A stretch of DNA of 32,000 bases from an uncultured archaeon (GTDB lineage Archaea; Iainarchaeota; Iainarchaeia; Iainarchaeales; JAAZKV01). How positions within the stretch are numbered: the stretch's first letter is position 1; every line of letters starts with the position of its first letter. The stretch is from positions 660,001 through 692,000 of the forward strand of contig CAZKBG010000001.1 of NCBI GenBank assembly GCA_964551375.1, in the 5' to 3' direction. This document shows positions 12,023 through 27,164 of the stretch, one piece after another. The notes under the pieces were generated by a model. It was given only the letters and a program-made list of their open reading frames with translations, was not told where the DNA came from and did not search any database. The position numbers were made by a program, and so were the translations under genes.

Positions 12023-12415
12023 TTAAGGTGAAGAGGAAAGAATATCAAGAGTTGTTGAGCCCTTTTTTGCTTCCGCAAGAGAAATCATAAAATTTTTTCC
12101 CGCATTATGAAAGTGCTCAAATTTAACAAAAAGCCACCCTTCCCTTGGAATTTTCCAAGCAATAAAAAATTCGGCTCCAGCAACCTTCGCCCAATTTACT
12201 TCATCATTCATTGTCACAACAGGAATTGCCAAATGCTCGCCCTTCCACGCTTTGCACTCAAAAGCAAGAATCCTCCCTGATTTAATCGCAACAACATCAG
12301 GACTGGGAAGAGGCGAAACTCCGGAACCCGCGACTCTAAGAACCGCAAAACCCCTGTCAAAAAGAACTTTAATCAACTCGCGTTCCGCGTTTGCGCCTTT
12401 ATTATAATGAGCCAT
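12023..12415 (-). CDS. hjc: Archaeal Holliday junction resolvase Hjc
   Basis: Has KGANAERELIKVLFDRGFAVLRVAGSG...PDVVAIK...ILAFECKAWKG (restriction-endonuclease-like E..D..ExK core), about 130 aa, with GGTGA 4 nt before the ATG. Confidence 0.85.
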   Translation of the reverse strand: MAHYNKGANAERELIKVLFDRGFAVLRVAGSGVSPLPSPDVVAIKSGRILAFECKAWKGEHLAIPVVTMNDEVNWAKVAGAEFFIAWKIPREGWLFVKFEHFHNAGKNFMISLAEAKKGSTTLDILSSSP

Positions 12416-21088: not shown

Positions 21089-21134
21089 ACACCATAAAAC
21101 AACAATATAACAACAAAACGAGGTGTTTATTCAA

Positions 21135-24100
21135 ATGAAAATAAAGGGACAGGGATCTATTGAAAATCTATTAATCATAAGCGCGGCGATTGTGGTTGTC
21201 GCAATAGTAATAGTAGCCGTTTATGGAATAATGACGCAAGGAAATGAAAGCGTAATAAGCGGAGAAGAAATAAACACCGGAACTACAGGAACTTTAAGAG
21301 AATTACAGGGAGTTGAAATACAAACAATTATTGTCCCTGACGGAACAAGCGCAACAATAGAAATAAAGCCAAGCGCGACTGATGATAAACTAAAAAACAT
21401 GTTCAAAGGAGCTCCAAACGGAACAGGCTTCACAGTAAACAACGGACCAAACAGCGGAAGCACATGCCAAAGAACAGCAACAGGATGGGTTGACGCCAAC
21501 GGAAACGGATGCAACACACCAATAACAAGCGGAACTTTACTAACAATCTCAAACTCAAGCGGAGGCGGAGGAACTTACACTGAAAGCATAAGAGGAGTGG
21601 GGACAACTGGAGGACAGGGACAAACTGTAACACAAACTATATCGCCAGGAACACCAACACCTATCACATTAACATTCACGCCAAACCAATTGATAACTGA
21701 TTTATTCACAAGCCTGCCGAGCGGAACAACAATTGCAATCGGAACTGACGGAACTATACTAACAAGAACTACAGATGGCTGGATTTTAACACTGCCAAAC
21801 GGAACAACAGTTACCGACACAAATGTAATAAATTCACTAATACCACTTTCAAACGGAACAGTACTCAATATTACAACACCAGCAGGATCAACAACAGTAA
21901 CACTAAGCATTGTGGAAGGAACACCACCAACAGTAGTACTGCCTACACCAATACAACTATCAACATGCGCTGATTTGCAGAATATACAAAACAATTTAGT
22001 GGGAAATTATGAACTTGCAAGCAACATTGACTGCTCAACACTAGAAGAATTCACACCAATAACAGATTTTAGAGGAACATTAAACGGAAAGGGACATAAA
22101 ATTTCAAACTTGTCCGTTTACTCAAGCAGCGGACAGCCGACTGGACTATTTTCCACAACAAACGGCGCAACAATAAAAAAATTATCAATAGAAGGCGCTG
22201 AAATAATCGGACTTCAATCAACAGGAATACTTGTTGGAAACATGGGCGGAGGGATAATTACTGAAGTTCACACACAAGGAAATGTGCAGGGAACAGATTA
22301 CGTTGGAGGAATAGTTGGAAGAACAATGGGTGGACAAATAACAAACTCCTACTCCACATCATCAACAGCAAATGAAGAAAGAATCCGCGCAACAGGAAAC
22401 TATGCGGGCGGAATAACAGGAAGCCTTGTTGGAGGAGGAAGCATAAATTCAGTATACTCTGAAGCAACAGTAGAAGCGCAAAATTACACAGGAGGAATTG
22501 TAGGAGAATTTATTGAAGCGCAAATGGCAAACGCATACTTCTCAGGCACAATAACCTCATCCCCTACATCAAAAATAGGCGGAGTAATCGGAAAAATGAA
22601 CAGCACATTTGGAGAATCAAACCTTTCATGGATGCTTTACCCTGACAACTGCGCAGGAGAAATATCATATAGAGAGCCAGGAAGCTGCGAGAAAAAATAC
22701 AACGAAGAAGACTTTATGGACCAAACATACGAGCCTATGGCATCATTCACTGGCGGATTTGGAACAGGCAAAGCATGGAGCATATGCCAATACGAAGACC
22801 AGCCGTGGCTGACATTTGAAAACAAAACATGCACTCCTCCGCAAATATATGCGGATGTAATCAACATCACTGGAGCCGGAACAATATACATACAACTTCA
22901 TGTGGCTCCAATAAACAATACACTAACAACGCTATTTGGAAGCATTGGAAACGGCGGACAAGTGAGAAAACTTGGAGACTCAACAGTGTTCACAAATAAC
23001 AGCGGGACATGGACAGCAAGCGGAGGAACAACAACCCCTGCACAATTAACTATAAACACAAATGATAAATTTGCGGTAACAAGCACTATGCCAAATATAT
23101 TCCAAGTAAATTCATACCAAACAACACCGCCATTTGTAACACAAATAACTGACACAACACCGCCGACAATAAAATCAATTAGTCTTCAAGGCTGCGGAGG
23201 AATAAAAGTTCCAAACACAGACACATACTCAAGATTTGACTACAATGTGCTAATAGAAACTACAGACACACAAACAGAAGTAGCAAGCTGCACAATAGAA
23301 AGCTATTTTAGAATACCGGGAACTATGACATGGCTTAAAGCAAACACAAAATCAATTGCAAATCCATTCATTATGCCTGATGTAAACTATATCCACGGAA
23401 ACCAAGTAATGACTTCTTCACCATACCCAACAAGCCTTGACACAAGATACACTGTAACATGCAAAGACATAATTGGAAACACAACAACAATGATTACAAC
23501 ACCAACAATGACATGCCCAATTCCTGCAGCGCCTCAACTAATATCATTGCCTGCGGGAAAAATAACAGCAGTAAAAATGAACGACACAGCTATTGACGAT
23601 CCAGCAAGCGCTTCGCCAATTCCGCCAAGGATTATCCAAATGTTTGGAACCCCATCAAACGGAACAACTGTTAGAAAAATGGGAAAAGCGGTAACTTACA
23701 CATGGAATAACGGATGGAGCGCAAGCAGCGGAAGCCACAATGATTTTAATGCAACAAACGGAGACACAATAATAATATCAACTCCGGCAGGAACGCCGAA
23801 TCAAATGGCAATATTTGCAAGGACAAGCCTGCCGTACGCAACAATTGTGAACGACACAACAGGACCGACTGTAACGAATGTACTCTCAAGCTGTTATCCA
23901 AAATCAGTGGCATTCATGGGGCCATACGCAAGAGACATAAACTTTGCAATAACTGCAAACGACACACAGCTCGAAACAAAGAACTGCTCACTTGTGATAA
24001 ACAAAACAGCACCTGCGCCGGCAATGACTTTCAATGCGACTACCGGAACAAATTATCTCCAGACAGGAAATTTTGTGCACACAATGACAATATCACAAAT

Positions 24101-24206
24101 GGCTGATTTAACAACACCAGTAACAGTAAACGGAACTATCACCTGCCAAGACTCACTTGGAAATATCGGCCCAATGAACACAATCGGGATATATAATTGT
24201 CCATAA
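21135..24206 (+). CDS. Giant class III signal peptide (type IV pilin-like) surface protein with a GLUG-type beta-helix insertion and repeated modules (1023 aa)
   Basis: The N-terminus is MKIKG|QGSIENLLIISAAIVVVAIVIVAVYGI (QxSxE motif plus hydrophobic helix). I prefer ATG 21135, with GAGGTG about 9 nt upstream, over GTG 21123. The protein is T/N/G-rich, and I counted more than 20 N-x-S/T sequons by eye. Confidence 0.8.
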   Translation: MKIKGQGSIENLLIISAAIVVVAIVIVAVYGIMTQGNESVISGEEINTGTTGTLRELQGVEIQTIIVPDGTSATIEIKPSATDDKLKNMFKGAPNGTGFTVNNGPNSGSTCQRTATGWVDANGNGCNTPITSGTLLTISNSSGGGGTYTESIRGVGTTGGQGQTVTQTISPGTPTPITLTFTPNQLITDLFTSLPSGTTIAIGTDGTILTRTTDGWILTLPNGTTVTDTNVINSLIPLSNGTVLNITTPAGSTTVTLSIVEGTPPTVVLPTPIQLSTCADLQNIQNNLVGNYELASNIDCSTLEEFTPITDFRGTLNGKGHKISNLSVYSSSGQPTGLFSTTNGATIKKLSIEGAEIIGLQSTGILVGNMGGGIITEVHTQGNVQGTDYVGGIVGRTMGGQITNSYSTSSTANEERIRATGNYAGGITGSLVGGGSINSVYSEATVEAQNYTGGIVGEFIEAQMANAYFSGTITSSPTSKIGGVIGKMNSTFGESNLSWMLYPDNCAGEISYREPGSCEKKYNEEDFMDQTYEPMASFTGGFGTGKAWSICQYEDQPWLTFENKTCTPPQIYADVINITGAGTIYIQLHVAPINNTLTTLFGSIGNGGQVRKLGDSTVFTNNSGTWTASGGTTTPAQLTINTNDKFAVTSTMPNIFQVNSYQTTPPFVTQITDTTPPTIKSISLQGCGGIKVPNTDTYSRFDYNVLIETTDTQTEVASCTIESYFRIPGTMTWLKANTKSIANPFIMPDVNYIHGNQVMTSSPYPTSLDTRYTVTCKDIIGNTTTMITTPTMTCPIPAAPQLISLPAGKITAVKMNDTAIDDPASASPIPPRIIQMFGTPSNGTTVRKMGKAVTYTWNNGWSASSGSHNDFNATNGDTIIISTPAGTPNQMAIFARTSLPYATIVNDTTGPTVTNVLSSCYPKSVAFMGPYARDINFAITANDTQLETKNCSLVINKTAPAPAMTFNATTGTNYLQTGNFVHTMTISQMADLTTPVTVNGTITCQDSLGNIGPMNTIGIYNCP
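21364..21536. repeat. Copy 1 of a 173-nt block identical to 24538..24710
   Basis: Base-by-base comparison: TAAAGCCAAGCGCGACTGATGATAAAC...CAATAACAAGCGGAACT is identical in both genes, while the flanks are clearly diverged. Confidence 0.9.
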
Positions 24207-24217
24207 ATTTAACAAAA

Positions 24218-24250
24218 GCAACAGGAGAAATCCTGTTGCCCTGTTTTTTT
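24218..24250 (+). terminator. Terminator-like hairpin plus T7 after the first pilin-like gene
   Basis: GCAACAGGA-GAAA-TCCTGTTGC is a 9-bp perfect stem, followed by CCTGTTTTTTT. Confidence 0.55.
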
Positions 24251-24272
24251 AAGAATTCACATTTAGGTTAGG

Positions 24273-24280
24273 TATAAATA
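24273..24280 (+). promoter_or_regulatory. TATA box of the second pilin-like gene
   Basis: GGTATAAATACC. The TATA ends 22 nt before ATG 24303, ACTAATTA lies at 24293-24300, and there is no SD, which suggests a leaderless mRNA. Confidence 0.5.
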
Positions 24281-24302
24281 CCAAAAAGCACAACTAATTA
24301 TC

Positions 24303-25787
24303 ATGCAAAACATAAAAAAAGCTCAAGGCTCGCTTGAAAACTTATTAATCATAAGCGCGGCAATCATAGTTGTAGCAGTTGTAATAATTGCAGTTTATGG
24401 AATAATGACGCAGGGAAATGAAAGCGTAATAAGCGGAGAAGATATTAAGACAGGAACTACTGGAACGCTAAGAGAAATGCAGGGAGTTGAAATACAAACA
24501 GTGGATGTTCCTGCAGACAGCCAGGTTACAATTACAGTAAAGCCAAGCGCGACTGATGATAAACTAAAAAACATGTTCAAAGGAGCTCCAAACGGAACAG
24601 GCTTCACAGTAAACAACGGACCAAACAGCGGAAGCACATGCCAAAGAACAGCAACAGGATGGGTTGACGCCAACGGAAACGGATGCAACACACCAATAAC
24701 AAGCGGAACTAATGTAACAATTTCAACAAGCGGAGGAAGCTCATATCATGAAGAAATAAGAGGAGTAGGAACAGGAGGAACAACAACAGGAACATTCTCG
24801 CAAGCAATTAGCCCAGGAACTCCAACTACTATTACAGCACCATTTAATTCAAACGCATATTTTACAGATGTATTTTCTGCAATGCCGATTGGAACAATAA
24901 TCACTGTGGGAACATCAAGACTGACAAGAACAGCAACAGGATGGGTTTTGACTTTACAGGACGGAACAATAATAACTGATCCTTACCAAATCAATCAATT
25001 AATCCCTGTTACAAGCGGAACTGTATTCATAATTACTTCACCTACTCAAACAACAATTACTTTAACAGAAGGAACTCCTCCAGCGCCAGTAACTGACTCA
25101 ATCGCACTTGCAGCAGGAGAAACAATTGCGCTGAAAATAAACGCAAACCTTGACAATAATACATTAAACGGATTATTTCCATCAATGGCAGCAAATTCAA
25201 CAGTAAGAAAAGTTGGAACAAACAGCACGTTCACTTACAACGGAACTGCTTGGAGCTCAAGCGGAGGAACAACACCCGCACAATTTAGCGCAAACCTAAA
25301 TGACACTTTAATAATAAAAAGCACTGGCGCATTCACAATAAACGCAAGAAGCTTCACTGCGCAGGCACCGCTTGTAACAAAAATAATTGACACAACTGGA
25401 CCGACAATCAACAGCATATATGCATACTGCCGACTAATAGGAAGTGGATACAGCGTCAGCAGAGCTGTTAGATTCACAATAAACGGAACGGATGATCAGC
25501 TTGAGTCAATATACTGCAGACTGGACATAACATACACCCGAACACTAAACCAAGGACCGACAACTGCAACAATTGACGACTACACATACCCACACACTTA
25601 TACTAGAACTGCGGACATGCAAAGAGACCACGTACTACACTCATGGACAAGCAGCTACAGCCCGGTTGTTTACAACGACATAAACTTTACATGCTTTGAC
25701 TCGCTCGGAAACGCAAGCGCAAAAGCAAATTTTAAAAACTTCCGGTGTGAACCAGAAAACATGCTCCCTGGACAGAGACTAAAATAA
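24303..25787 (+). CDS. Class III signal peptide (type IV pilin-like) surface protein, paralog of 21135..24206 (494 aa)
   Basis: The N-terminus is MQNIKKA|QGSLENLLIISAAIIVVAVVIIAVYGI. The first ~270 aa are collinear with the larger paralog, and the C-terminal DTTGPT...C...C.D.LGN...C.P module is shared. Confidence 0.8.
   Translation: MQNIKKAQGSLENLLIISAAIIVVAVVIIAVYGIMTQGNESVISGEDIKTGTTGTLREMQGVEIQTVDVPADSQVTITVKPSATDDKLKNMFKGAPNGTGFTVNNGPNSGSTCQRTATGWVDANGNGCNTPITSGTNVTISTSGGSSYHEEIRGVGTGGTTTGTFSQAISPGTPTTITAPFNSNAYFTDVFSAMPIGTIITVGTSRLTRTATGWVLTLQDGTIITDPYQINQLIPVTSGTVFIITSPTQTTITLTEGTPPAPVTDSIALAAGETIALKINANLDNNTLNGLFPSMAANSTVRKVGTNSTFTYNGTAWSSSGGTTPAQFSANLNDTLIIKSTGAFTINARSFTAQAPLVTKIIDTTGPTINSIYAYCRLIGSGYSVSRAVRFTINGTDDQLESIYCRLDITYTRTLNQGPTTATIDDYTYPHTYTRTADMQRDHVLHSWTSSYSPVVYNDINFTCFDSLGNASAKANFKNFRCEPENMLPGQRLK
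24538..24710. repeat. Copy 2 of the 173-nt block identical to 21364..21536
   Basis: See copy 1. It encodes KPSATDDKLKNMFKGAPNGTGFTVNNGPNSGSTCQRTATGWVDANGNGCNTPITSGT in both proteins. Confidence 0.9.
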
Positions 25788-25865: not shown

Positions 25866-27164
25866 ATGCTTATGCAAAACAAAGGACAGGGTGTCCAAAG
25901 CGGACAAGCCCCAAATAGGGGACAGGGGGCAATTGAATACTTACTAATCATCGGCGCAGCGATACTTGTAATTGCTATTGTAATAATTGCAATAAGCGGA
26001 GCGCTTGGAACAGGAACTAATCAAAGCGCAGGCGCAAAAGGAAATCAAATGGGGGCGTTTGTAAACTTAAGACAAATGAACCTAACCCCCCAATTTTTCA
26101 GATTGCCTTCAGTGTCCCTTGGACCAGGACAGCAAATAATATTTAATTACACTGACCCAGCAACTGGGCAAACTACACAAACACCAATTACAAATCAAGC
26201 ACAACTAAACCAGGCATTAATGAATGGAGACTTAAACCTATACCTAACCCCGCCAGGGGTTTCAGCCACTCCTGGAATGAGCACAAGTTACATATTATCG
26301 ACTCCTCAAACAAATAAACCAAAAAATCTGCTGAAAATAATTGGTTGCATGAAAAATAGCCCTTATTCACAAACCCCTTCTGGAACAGCTGGATTTCTAA
26401 TCGGAGACGAAGCAGGAAGCAGAATACAAGACCAGGCAATAATGGCTGATTTAAATAACCGCCCAGTAAAACTTATTTCAATTACAGGATACGGCGGAAG
26501 CAATTACTCAAACGCAGTTGACAAGACATACAAATTACGACTTTCCCAACCATTCTACTATTATTCTATGCCAGGCTATTTTGTATACCTCGCAACTTTT
26601 GAAGGACTGACTGATAATTCAGGAAACCCGATAAATCAAACAGCAATAAACAGCATTTGCAATAGCAGCACAGGATATTCAGTAGGAAATGCCAACGTAA
26701 GATCAGAATTCAACGGGTGGTCATTTTACAACTATGATTATGATATTATATATGGAAACAATCCCGGACTTGCAGAAATAGCAATAGCATATAATGGAAC
26801 AAACACAACAATAATCGGGAGAGACAATAAAGGAAATCTGCTCACTGACACAGTAACAGCATATCTGCCATGCACTGAAACACAGTGGCTGCCGATTGCT
26901 GGATATACTGGAAACCAGCAAATATACAAAAGATGCTGCGATTATGCTAACTGCTGTTCAAGGACATCACTAGGAATATTAACAAGCACAAACTGCACAA
27001 TAGATACAGTAACCCACTGTCAGTCATTTACCTGCGAGCCAACAACATGCACTCTTGGAACAAGAAAAGTAACAAGTTACTATGACACAAATATATTCAC
27101 CTGCTTAAACCAACCAACCCAAATAGCAAACATGTATGTTGAAGCAATCATAAGCGCGCCATAA
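25866..27164 (+). CDS. Class III signal peptide (type IV pilin-like) surface protein with a Cys-rich C-terminal region (432 aa, or 430 from ATG 25872)
   Basis: ...NKGQGVQSGQAPNRG|QGAIEYLLIIGAAILVIAIVIIAISGA. The rest is unrelated to the two upstream paralogs. There are 10 Cys in the last ~100 aa. Confidence 0.8.
   Translation: MLMQNKGQGVQSGQAPNRGQGAIEYLLIIGAAILVIAIVIIAISGALGTGTNQSAGAKGNQMGAFVNLRQMNLTPQFFRLPSVSLGPGQQIIFNYTDPATGQTTQTPITNQAQLNQALMNGDLNLYLTPPGVSATPGMSTSYILSTPQTNKPKNLLKIIGCMKNSPYSQTPSGTAGFLIGDEAGSRIQDQAIMADLNNRPVKLISITGYGGSNYSNAVDKTYKLRLSQPFYYYSMPGYFVYLATFEGLTDNSGNPINQTAINSICNSSTGYSVGNANVRSEFNGWSFYNYDYDIIYGNNPGLAEIAIAYNGTNTTIIGRDNKGNLLTDTVTAYLPCTETQWLPIAGYTGNQQIYKRCCDYANCCSRTSLGILTSTNCTIDTVTHCQSFTCEPTTCTLGTRKVTSYYDTNIFTCLNQPTQIANMYVEAIISAP

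What the first reader, a model, noticed from the sequence alone, without database searches (positions are those of the whole stretch)
21364..21536. 173-nt block 100 percent identical between two paralogs whose flanks are diverged (second copy at 24538-24710)
Base-by-base comparison shows 21364-21536 and 24538-24710 are identical. Immediately upstream the genes differ at many positions: ...caattattgtccctgacggaacaagcgcaacaatagaaa versus ...cagtggatgttcctgcagacagccaggttacaattacag. Immediately downstream they differ again (ttactaaca versus aatgtaaca). Synonymous sites inside the block are also identical, so protein-level constraint alone does not explain it. This suggests recent gene conversion between the paralogs. 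It could also be a recombination anchor that lets downstream variable modules be exchanged, giving cassette-like variation of a surface protein.
Basis: seen in the sequence. Interest (0 to 1): 0.6.

Follow-up and report, generated by a model that had tools for sequence, protein, structure and literature searches.

The report
Gene conversion between tandem archaeal pilin-like genes
Two neighbouring surface-protein genes of an uncultured small-genome archaeon share an exactly identical 173-base stretch, most likely because one copy was recently pasted over the other by ordinary homologous recombination; this is a clear but unremarkable case of gene conversion, not a programmed variation system.

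Summary
Window 21364-21536 and 24538-24710 are identical over exactly 173 nt, and mismatches bound the block on both sides. It lies in register and in frame in the N-terminal domains of two tandem paralogs, g1 (21135-24206) and g2 (24303-25787). Both look like class III signal peptide (archaeal type IV pilin-like) proteins.

The identity is far beyond chance. None of about 39 synonymous sites differ in the block, against dS 0.67 upstream and 1.04 downstream. The longest identical run in 20,000 permutations was 50-91 nt.

One congeneric genome (G004) holds the orthologous tandem pair. There the flanks group by orthology, and its two copies of the block are only 85% identical. Between the two species the block has dS of about 0.5. 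So nothing holds the DNA sequence constant, and the identity is a recent event in this lineage.

Upstream (21201-21338), the paralogs in both genomes are closer at synonymous sites than the orthologs are, so older conversions probably occurred there.

No RNA structure, Rfam family, reverse transcriptase or recombinase context was found. RadA and Hjc are present.

Read-level checks were not possible. The k=55 assembly could hide one or two SNPs but could not create the block.

This scan has already reported similar converted tandem pilin genes in other genomes. Verdict: an ordinary, well-supported gene conversion tract.

The parts
21364..21536 (+). Copy 1 of the 173-nt identical block. It covers codons for residues ~77-134 of g1 (counted from ATG 21135), beginning KPSATDDKLKN and ending NTPITSGT.
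   Evidence: Exact identity with 24538-24710. 0 of 38.7 synonymous sites differ.
24538..24710 (+). Copy 2 of the identical block, residues 79-136 of g2.
   Evidence: Same codon phase as copy 1.
21135..24206 (+). g1, a 1023-aa pilin-like surface protein. The ORF is open from GTG 21123, and ATG 21135 follows a GAGGTG motif. Layout: N-terminal class III-type signal and helix, the shared N-terminal domain, a Glug/M26_N-like insert, then two C-terminal modules.
24303..25787 (+). g2, a 494-aa paralog. It is collinear with g1 over its first ~265 residues and then carries one C-terminal module.
21339..21363 (+). Paralog-specific signature segment that forms the 5' boundary of the tract. Its counterpart in g2 is 24513-24537. 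It is very diverged between the paralogs but conserved between orthologs.
   Evidence: Over 21339-21365, dN is 0.97 for A1-A2 and 0.16 for A2-B2. Alignment.
21201..21338 (+). Upstream zone of older homogenisation (counterpart 24375-24512). It encodes the hydrophobic helix and the start of the mature protein.
   Evidence: Paralog dS is 0.45 (G000) and 0.46 (G004), against ortholog dS of 0.70 and 1.27. There are 13 paralog-type and 14 ortholog-type quartet sites. The B1/B2 concordant run at 21218-21245 has permutation p of about 0.006.
24207..24302 (+). g1-g2 intergenic region. It holds a terminator-like hairpin plus T-run, followed by a TATA-like box about 25 nt before the g2 ATG. g2 is therefore probably its own transcription unit and not a silent cassette.
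   Evidence: Read directly from the sequence. Expression is inferred, not shown.
25866..27164 (+). g3, a third class III signal peptide gene. It resembles g1 and g2 only in the signal/helix region (76-80% over 59 nt) and is not part of the converted tract.
   Evidence: PF04021, 25.4 bits, above the cut-off.

Best explanation
The 173-nt block is a recent tract of ectopic (inter-paralog) gene conversion. The two genes are tandem duplicates, 3174 nt apart on the same strand, and the duplication predates the split from the nearest sequenced congener. During recombinational repair or replication restart, a strand from one copy invaded the homologous N-terminal region of the other and was used as template, which overwrote 173 nt or slightly fewer. 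This is RadA-dependent homologous recombination; Hjc would resolve any junctions. The tract ended where homology collapses. At the 5' end that is a 9-codon paralog-specific segment. At the 3' end it is a diverged stretch with a 6-nt indel about 20 nt downstream. The same N-terminal region shows older, partly decayed homogenisation in both genomes, so the first ~140 codons evolve in concert while the rest of each gene diverges. Shown: the identity, its statistical excess, the orthology of the flanks, the lack of between-species nucleotide conservation in the block, and the presence of recombination genes. Inferred: the molecular pathway, the direction of transfer (undetermined), and any selective benefit, such as keeping both subunits compatible with one assembly machinery.
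For: The block is an exact, maximal 173-nt match in register and in frame. 0 of 38.7 synonymous sites differ, against dS 0.67 upstream and 1.04 downstream. No permutation out of 20,000 reached the observed run. The congener G004 has the syntenic tandem pair, with spacing 3150 against 3174 nt and the same downstream eIF6 and prefoldin genes. Downstream of the block, quartet sites favour orthology 37 to 8; inside the block all 18 informative sites group by genome. Block dS is 0 for A1-A2, 0.47-0.51 between species and 0.35 for B1-B2, so the DNA of the block evolves freely between lineages. RadA (323 bits) and Hjc (83.6 bits, inside this window at 12116-12388) are encoded. Other repeated surface-protein sequences in the same genome also carry exact blocks inside 78-91% identical repeats. 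Tract-limited conversion between tandem archaeal paralogs has a published precedent in mtrA-1/mtrA-2 (PMC4632066).
Against: Only one comparator genome carries the pair, so the lineage-specific inference rests on a four-sequence comparison. No reads could be examined. The assembly looks like a k=55 de Bruijn product, since contig ends overlap by exactly 55 nt. From my own knowledge of such assemblers, bubble removal can erase isolated SNPs between near-identical repeats, so true identity might be about 99% and not 100%. The donor and recipient cannot be assigned: at sites where B1 and B2 differ, the block matches B1 at 12, B2 at 9 and neither at 5.
Confidence: 0.88

Rival explanations
1. Assembly artefact: the two copies are really as diverged as their flanks, and the assembler or a polisher copied one sequence over the other.
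For: The genome is a short-read, metagenome-type assembly with k=55 signatures and 100-N scaffold gaps. Reads were not available. Bubble popping can homogenise near-identical repeats (my own knowledge of de Bruijn assemblers).
Against: Copies at about 80-85% identity, as in G004, share almost no 55-mers, so a de Bruijn graph cannot merge them. Only copies that are already about 97% or more identical can be collapsed, and such copies would still need conversion to explain them. The boundaries are in register and in frame. There is no N gap within 60 kb; the nearest is at C1:747229. The tandem order is reproduced in the independently assembled G004 contig.
Confidence: 0.05
2. Programmed recombination anchor: the identical direct repeat is maintained so that recombination between the copies swaps or deletes C-terminal modules, giving cassette-like or phase variation of a surface protein.
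For: The direct repeats are in frame, so a crossover would give an intact 492-aa chimera of the g1 N-terminus and g2 C-terminus and delete 3174 nt. The genes encode surface proteins, where variation is often useful.
Against: The block is not maintained in the congener: its copies are 85% identical with a longest exact run of 39 nt. Downstream modules group by orthology, with no sign of exchange. g2 has promoter-like and start signals, and g1 a GAGGTG motif and ATG. Neighbouring genes are housekeeping, with no recombinase, integrase or invertase. Any direct repeat allows occasional deletion without being a system.
Confidence: 0.04
3. The block is conserved at the nucleotide level because it holds a functional DNA or RNA element, such as an embedded small RNA, a regulatory site, or a DGR template/variable repeat pair.
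For: Identity extends to all synonymous sites.
Against: Between species the same block has dS 0.47-0.51 and 80-82% nucleotide identity. The RNA fold is no better than shuffled sequence, z = +1.03. No Rfam match falls in the block. No reverse transcriptase was found in the 93%-complete genome. Both copies are homologous coding sequence in the same register, unlike a TR/VR pair.
Confidence: 0.02

Closest known systems
Concerted evolution of the tandem archaeal paralogs mtrA-1/mtrA-2 by domain-limited gene conversion (Wang et al. 2015, PMC4632066; survey in Wang & Chen 2018, PMC6053082)
   Same: Both involve adjacent archaeal paralogs from an old duplication. Conversion homogenises only one shared domain while the other parts differ in architecture. 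Paralogs are closer within a genome than orthologs are between genomes in the converted part.
   Different: Here the genes are lineage-restricted surface proteins, found in 2 of 38 family genomes searched, and not core metabolic genes. The fresh tract is short (173 nt). Long-lasting recurrence is only hinted at by two genomes.
Gene-converted tandem pilin paralogs in bacteria, for example the cases this scan reported earlier in Patescibacteria/CPR and gut bacteria (notes e1-1330579, e1-1003076, e1-2062742, e1-5241611; unchecked here)
   Same: Neighbouring pilin-type genes share an exactly identical block in the assembly-proximal part and have diverged exposed parts.
   Different: This case is an archaeon with class III signal peptide proteins. 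The converted tract lies just after the N-terminal helix and covers only part of the first beta-rich domain.
Neisseria pilE/pilS antigenic variation (programmed, unidirectional gene conversion from silent cassettes; recalled from general knowledge)
   Same: Gene conversion acts on pilin genes, and conserved segments flank variable ones.
   Different: There are no silent, promoterless cassettes here. Conversion homogenises a conserved segment and does not diversify a variable one. No dedicated initiating element was found, and the identical block is not conserved in the relative.

Membership tests
Ectopic gene conversion / concerted evolution between paralogs | A tract whose identity, synonymous sites included, significantly exceeds that of the flanking homologous sequence | tested here: met
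   0 of 38.7 synonymous differences in the block against dS 0.67 and 1.04 in the flanks. Permutation p < 5e-5.
Ectopic gene conversion / concerted evolution between paralogs | Phylogenetic incongruence: flanks group by orthology, the tract groups by genome | tested here: met
   Downstream, 37 ortholog-type against 8 paralog-type sites. In the block, 0 against 18. Only one comparator genome (G004).
Ectopic gene conversion / concerted evolution between paralogs | The tract sequence is not itself invariant across lineages, so no nucleotide-level constraint | tested here: met
   80-82% identity and dS 0.47-0.51 between G000 and G004 in the block. B1-B2 are 85% identical.
Ectopic gene conversion / concerted evolution between paralogs | Homologous recombination machinery is present | tested here: met
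   RadA/Rad51 at 323 bits and Hjc at 83.6 bits.
Ectopic gene conversion / concerted evolution between paralogs | Identity confirmed at read level, so not an assembly product | not testable with these tools
Archaeal class III signal peptide (type IV pilin-like) proteins, Pfam PF04021 | N-terminal class III signal motif followed by a hydrophobic helix, scoring above the Pfam cut-off | tested here: inconclusive
   g1 scores 18.9 bits and g2 20.1 bits, below the 23.7 cut-off. g3 scores 25.4 bits, above it. A motif K-G-Q-G-S-(I/L)-E-N-L-L followed by ~20 hydrophobic residues is visible. The model predicts a helix at residues 8-37.
Archaeal class III signal peptide (type IV pilin-like) proteins, Pfam PF04021 | Cognate prepilin peptidase and assembly ATPase are encoded in the genome | tested here: met
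   Two Peptidase_A24 genes and at least 7 T2SSE-type ATPase matches. None is adjacent to g1-g3.
Diversity-generating retroelement (TR/VR pair) | A reverse transcriptase gene, and repeats that differ at adenines of the template | tested here: not met
   No RVT_1 match in the 93%-complete genome. The repeats are identical and both lie in homologous coding sequence.
Programmed pilin cassette variation (pilE/pilS type) | Silent partial cassettes that donate to one expressed locus | tested here: not met
   Both genes are complete ORFs with start codons. g2 has a TATA-like box after a terminator-like hairpin.

The most novel reading that the evidence does not exclude
Repeated homogenisation of the first ~140 codons may be favoured by selection because both large pilin-like proteins must fit the same filament or assembly machinery. 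A 9-codon paralog signature and the C-terminal adhesin-like modules would then be protected from conversion. In addition, the fresh in-frame 173-nt direct repeat might support reversible deletion or duplication in the population, switching between a 1023-aa plus 494-aa pair and a single 492-aa chimera.
Probability: 0.07. Interest if true: 0.45.

Novelty: new member of a known kind. Interest (0 to 1): 0.2.

Why it matters
This is a clean, datable example of inter-paralog gene conversion in an uncultured archaeon with a roughly 1.05-Mb genome. It suggests that homologous recombination acts in such reduced genomes and shapes their lineage-specific surface proteins. In practice, phylogenies or orthology calls built on the N-terminal ~140 codons of these genes would be misleading. 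The 173-nt repeat is also a place where assemblies and read mapping can go wrong. It does not reveal a new mechanism.

Tried and rejected
- **More relatives.** The search for homologous proteins returned only the G004 ortholog. The metagenome-contig scan found none. The genome-contig scan found only the G004 contig. A DNA search of 38 family genomes found only G004. The look-up of encoding contigs had no record.
- **Functional RNA.** There is no Rfam hit in the block, and the fold z-score is +1.03. Rejected.
- **DGR.** No reverse transcriptase in the genome. Rejected.
- **GC-biased conversion.** The block GC is 0.47 in all four copies, and substitutions show no AT-to-GC excess, 5 against 7. 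No signal.
- **Donor direction.** At sites where B1 and B2 differ, the block matches B1 at 12, B2 at 9 and neither at 5. Undetermined.
- **Fold of the N-terminal domain.** The AlphaFold2 model from 4 sequences has mean pLDDT 64. Foldseek against PDB gave no match at E <= 0.001. The domain stays unclassified. The block covers only part of the predicted first beta-rich region, so it is not a domain-sized module.
- **Taxon name.** No tool returned one beyond 'uncultured archaeon' for the congener's record. A DPANN-type affiliation is only an inference from genome size.

Full report
**1.

Window 21364-21536 and 24538-24710 are identical base for base. The match is maximal, because the bases on both sides differ. 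The offset is 3174 nt, a multiple of three, and both copies lie in the same codon phase. The whole 1.09-Mb assembly contains the block only at these two places. It is the third-longest exact repeat in the assembly and the longest on contig C1.

**2. What carries the block**

The block lies in two adjacent genes on the + strand.
- g1 runs 21135-24206. The ORF is open from GTG 21123, and ATG 21135 follows a GAGGTG motif. From the ATG it encodes 1023 aa.
- g2 runs 24303-25787 and encodes 494 aa.

Both proteins start with a short basic leader, a K-G-Q-G-S-x-E-N-L-L motif and about 20 hydrophobic residues. Pfam's Class_IIIsignal model matches both, but below its cut-off (18.9 and 20.1 bits against 23.7). 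The next gene, g3 (25866-27164), passes at 25.4 bits.

The genome encodes two A24 prepilin peptidases and at least seven T2SSE-type ATPases. I therefore read g1-g3 as archaeal type IV pilin-like surface proteins. Strict family membership for g1 and g2 remains formally inconclusive.

g1 and g2 are collinear over about 265 residues. g1 then carries a Glug/M26_N-like insert and two C-terminal modules, while g2 carries one.

The neighbouring genes are housekeeping genes: an RNase P Rpr2 subunit, a tRNA, two thymidylate kinases, eS19, eL31, eIF6, prefoldin and FtsY. No recombinase or mobile element is nearby.

After g1 there is a terminator-like hairpin with a T-run. A TATA-like box follows about 25 nt before the g2 ATG. 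g2 is therefore probably a separate, complete transcription unit and not a silent cassette. Expression itself was not shown.

**3. More than chance, and more than protein constraint**

| Region | dS (g1 vs g2) | dN (g1 vs g2) |
|---|---|---|
| Upstream, 21123-21338 | 0.67 | 0.12 |
| Block, 21364-21536 | 0 (0 of 38.7 synonymous sites) | 0 |
| Downstream, 21537-21950 | 1.04 | 0.43 |

These are Nei-Gojobori estimates.
- Shuffling the mismatch positions 20,000 times gave a longest identical run of 50 nt over the whole 798-column alignment.
- Using only the well-conserved N-terminal 429 columns, the longest permuted run was 91 nt. The observed run is 173 nt.
- Conditioning on sites polymorphic among four sequences (GENECONV-style), the observed run is 44 concordant sites, against a permuted maximum of 17.

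**4. The decisive comparison**

Among 61 related genomes, only G004 carries the pair. G004 belongs to the same genus, and its record is titled 'uncultured archaeon'. No further relatives turned up in the protein database, the metagenome contigs or the genome contigs.

G004 has the same tandem arrangement, with spacing 3150 nt. The same eIF6 and prefoldin genes lie downstream. I call the G000 genes A1 and A2, and the G004 genes B1 and B2.

Outside the block the genes group by orthology. The 9-codon segment just upstream of the block reads alike in A1 and B1, and alike in A2 and B2. Downstream of the block, 37 quartet sites support orthology and 8 support paralogy. The duplication is therefore older than the split between the two species.

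Inside the block the picture differs:

| Pair | Nucleotide identity | dS |
|---|---|---|
| A1-A2 | 100% | 0 |
| B1-B2 | 85% (longest exact run 39 nt) | 0.35 |
| A to B1 or B2 | 80-82% | 0.47-0.51 |

The DNA of the block therefore changes freely between lineages. Its perfect identity in this genome is a recent event in this lineage.

With no differences in 38.7 synonymous sites, the 95% upper bound is about 0.08 per site. That is roughly one sixth or less of the between-species value. This bound is my own calculation.

**5. Older conversions**

In 21201-21338 the paralogs of each genome are closer at synonymous sites (dS 0.45 and 0.46) than the orthologs are (0.70 and 1.27). Quartet sites there split 13 paralog-type to 14 ortholog-type. 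B1 and B2 have a concordant run at 21218-21245 with permutation p of about 0.006. In the block itself, B1-B2 dS (0.35) is also below the between-species values.

The first ~140 codons thus appear to evolve in concert in both lineages. Two parts keep their paralog identity: the 9-codon signature (21339-21365; dN 0.97 between paralogs against 0.16 for A2-B2) and everything downstream of 21536.

The fresh tract stops exactly at that signature on the 5' side. On the 3' side it stops about 20 nt before a 6-nt indel. That is where heteroduplex formation would be expected to fail, which is an inference.

**6. Mechanism**

The genome encodes RadA (323 bits) and the Holliday junction resolvase Hjc. Hjc lies in this window at 12116-12388 on the minus strand. 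The most likely mechanism is ordinary RadA-dependent ectopic recombination with non-reciprocal copying between the tandem copies.

The direction of transfer cannot be determined. At sites where B1 and B2 differ, the block matches B1 at 12, B2 at 9 and neither at 5. There is no sign of GC-biased conversion, since the block GC is 0.47 in all four copies.

**7. Rival explanations**

*Assembly artefact.* Contig ends overlap by exactly 55 nt, which fits a k=55 de Bruijn assembly. From my knowledge of such assemblers, bubble removal can erase isolated SNPs between near-identical repeats. True identity could therefore be about 99% and not 100%. Copies at 80-85% identity share essentially no 55-mers and cannot be merged, so an artefact cannot create the block. 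The nearest scaffold gap is 62 kb away. Reads could not be examined.

*Programmed recombination anchor or cassette system.* This is not supported. The identical block is absent from the congener. The downstream modules group by orthology. Both genes are complete. No dedicated recombinase was found. An in-frame crossover would give a 492-aa chimera, but that is true of any such repeat.

*Functional DNA or RNA element, or DGR.* This is rejected on four grounds: between-species dS of about 0.5 in the block, a fold z-score of +1.03, no Rfam match, and no reverse transcriptase in the genome.

**8. Comparison with known cases**

The closest published archaeal parallel is domain-limited conversion between the tandem mtrA-1 and mtrA-2 genes of methanogens (PMC4632066), set in the wider survey of prokaryotic concerted evolution (PMC6053082). 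This scan has already reported converted tandem pilin paralogs in several bacterial genomes (those notes were not checked here).

Within this genome, other repeated surface-protein sequences also carry exact blocks inside 78-91% identical repeats. The longest of these, on C2, adjoin a scaffold gap and may be partly assembly products.

**9. Verdict**

The gene-conversion reading is supported with confidence of about 0.88. The cassette or anchor reading is not supported. This is a new instance of a well-known process, of modest interest.

Noticed in passing
Genome G000, contigs C1, C4, C6, C2 (the window is C1:660001-692000): Contig ends overlap by exactly 55 nt in the order C1 -> C4 -> C6 -> C2 -> C1. 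This suggests a k=55 de Bruijn assembly whose four low-GC contigs (GC 0.37-0.38) close into a circle of about 1,053,800 bp. The 55-mers could also be graph repeats, so closure is not proven.
   Followed up: partly
Genome G000, contigs C3, C7, C10 (GC 0.57-0.59) and C5, C8, C9 (GC 0.45-0.50): Six short contigs have a GC content far above the 0.38 of the main contigs. They are probably mis-binned DNA from other organisms.
   Followed up: no
G000:C2:14650-17700 (locus L026, gene at L026:3091-6372): A 1093-aa protein with four Big_12 Ig-like domains holds the genome's two longest exact repeats (386 and 214 nt) inside repeats that are 91-93% identical. A 100-N scaffold gap at C2:15458-15557 and several exact 55-nt duplicates lie in the same region, so part of this may be an assembly product.
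   Followed up: partly
G000:C1:39557-41244 (locus L027, gene at L027:2027-7513): An 1828-aa ORF with no Pfam match has internal tandem repeats that are 78% identical and carry exact blocks of 89 and 71 nt. This may be further intragenic homogenisation.
   Followed up: no
window 24926-24947: A 22-nt exact match to positions 107-128 of the block, encoding R-T-A-T-G-W-V, lies in the second module of g2. g1 has T-R-T-T-D-G-W-I at the equivalent place. The motif recurs between modules, and the identical codons may reflect codon bias or a micro-conversion.
   Followed up: no
window 12023-12415 (-): A 130-aa ORF matches the Holliday junction resolvase Hjc (PF01870, 83.6 bits).
   Followed up: partly
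L024 4612-5792 (G004 contig C7): The G004 counterpart of g3 appears split into two overlapping ORFs of 203 and 255 aa. This could be a frameshift or an assembly error in that 62%-complete genome.
   Followed up: no
window 21135-25787, compared with 38 family genomes: The g1/g2 gene pair was found in only 2 of the 38 family genomes searched. Other genomes show only weak similarity, limited to the signal/helix region. These appear to be fast-evolving, lineage-restricted surface proteins.
   Followed up: partly
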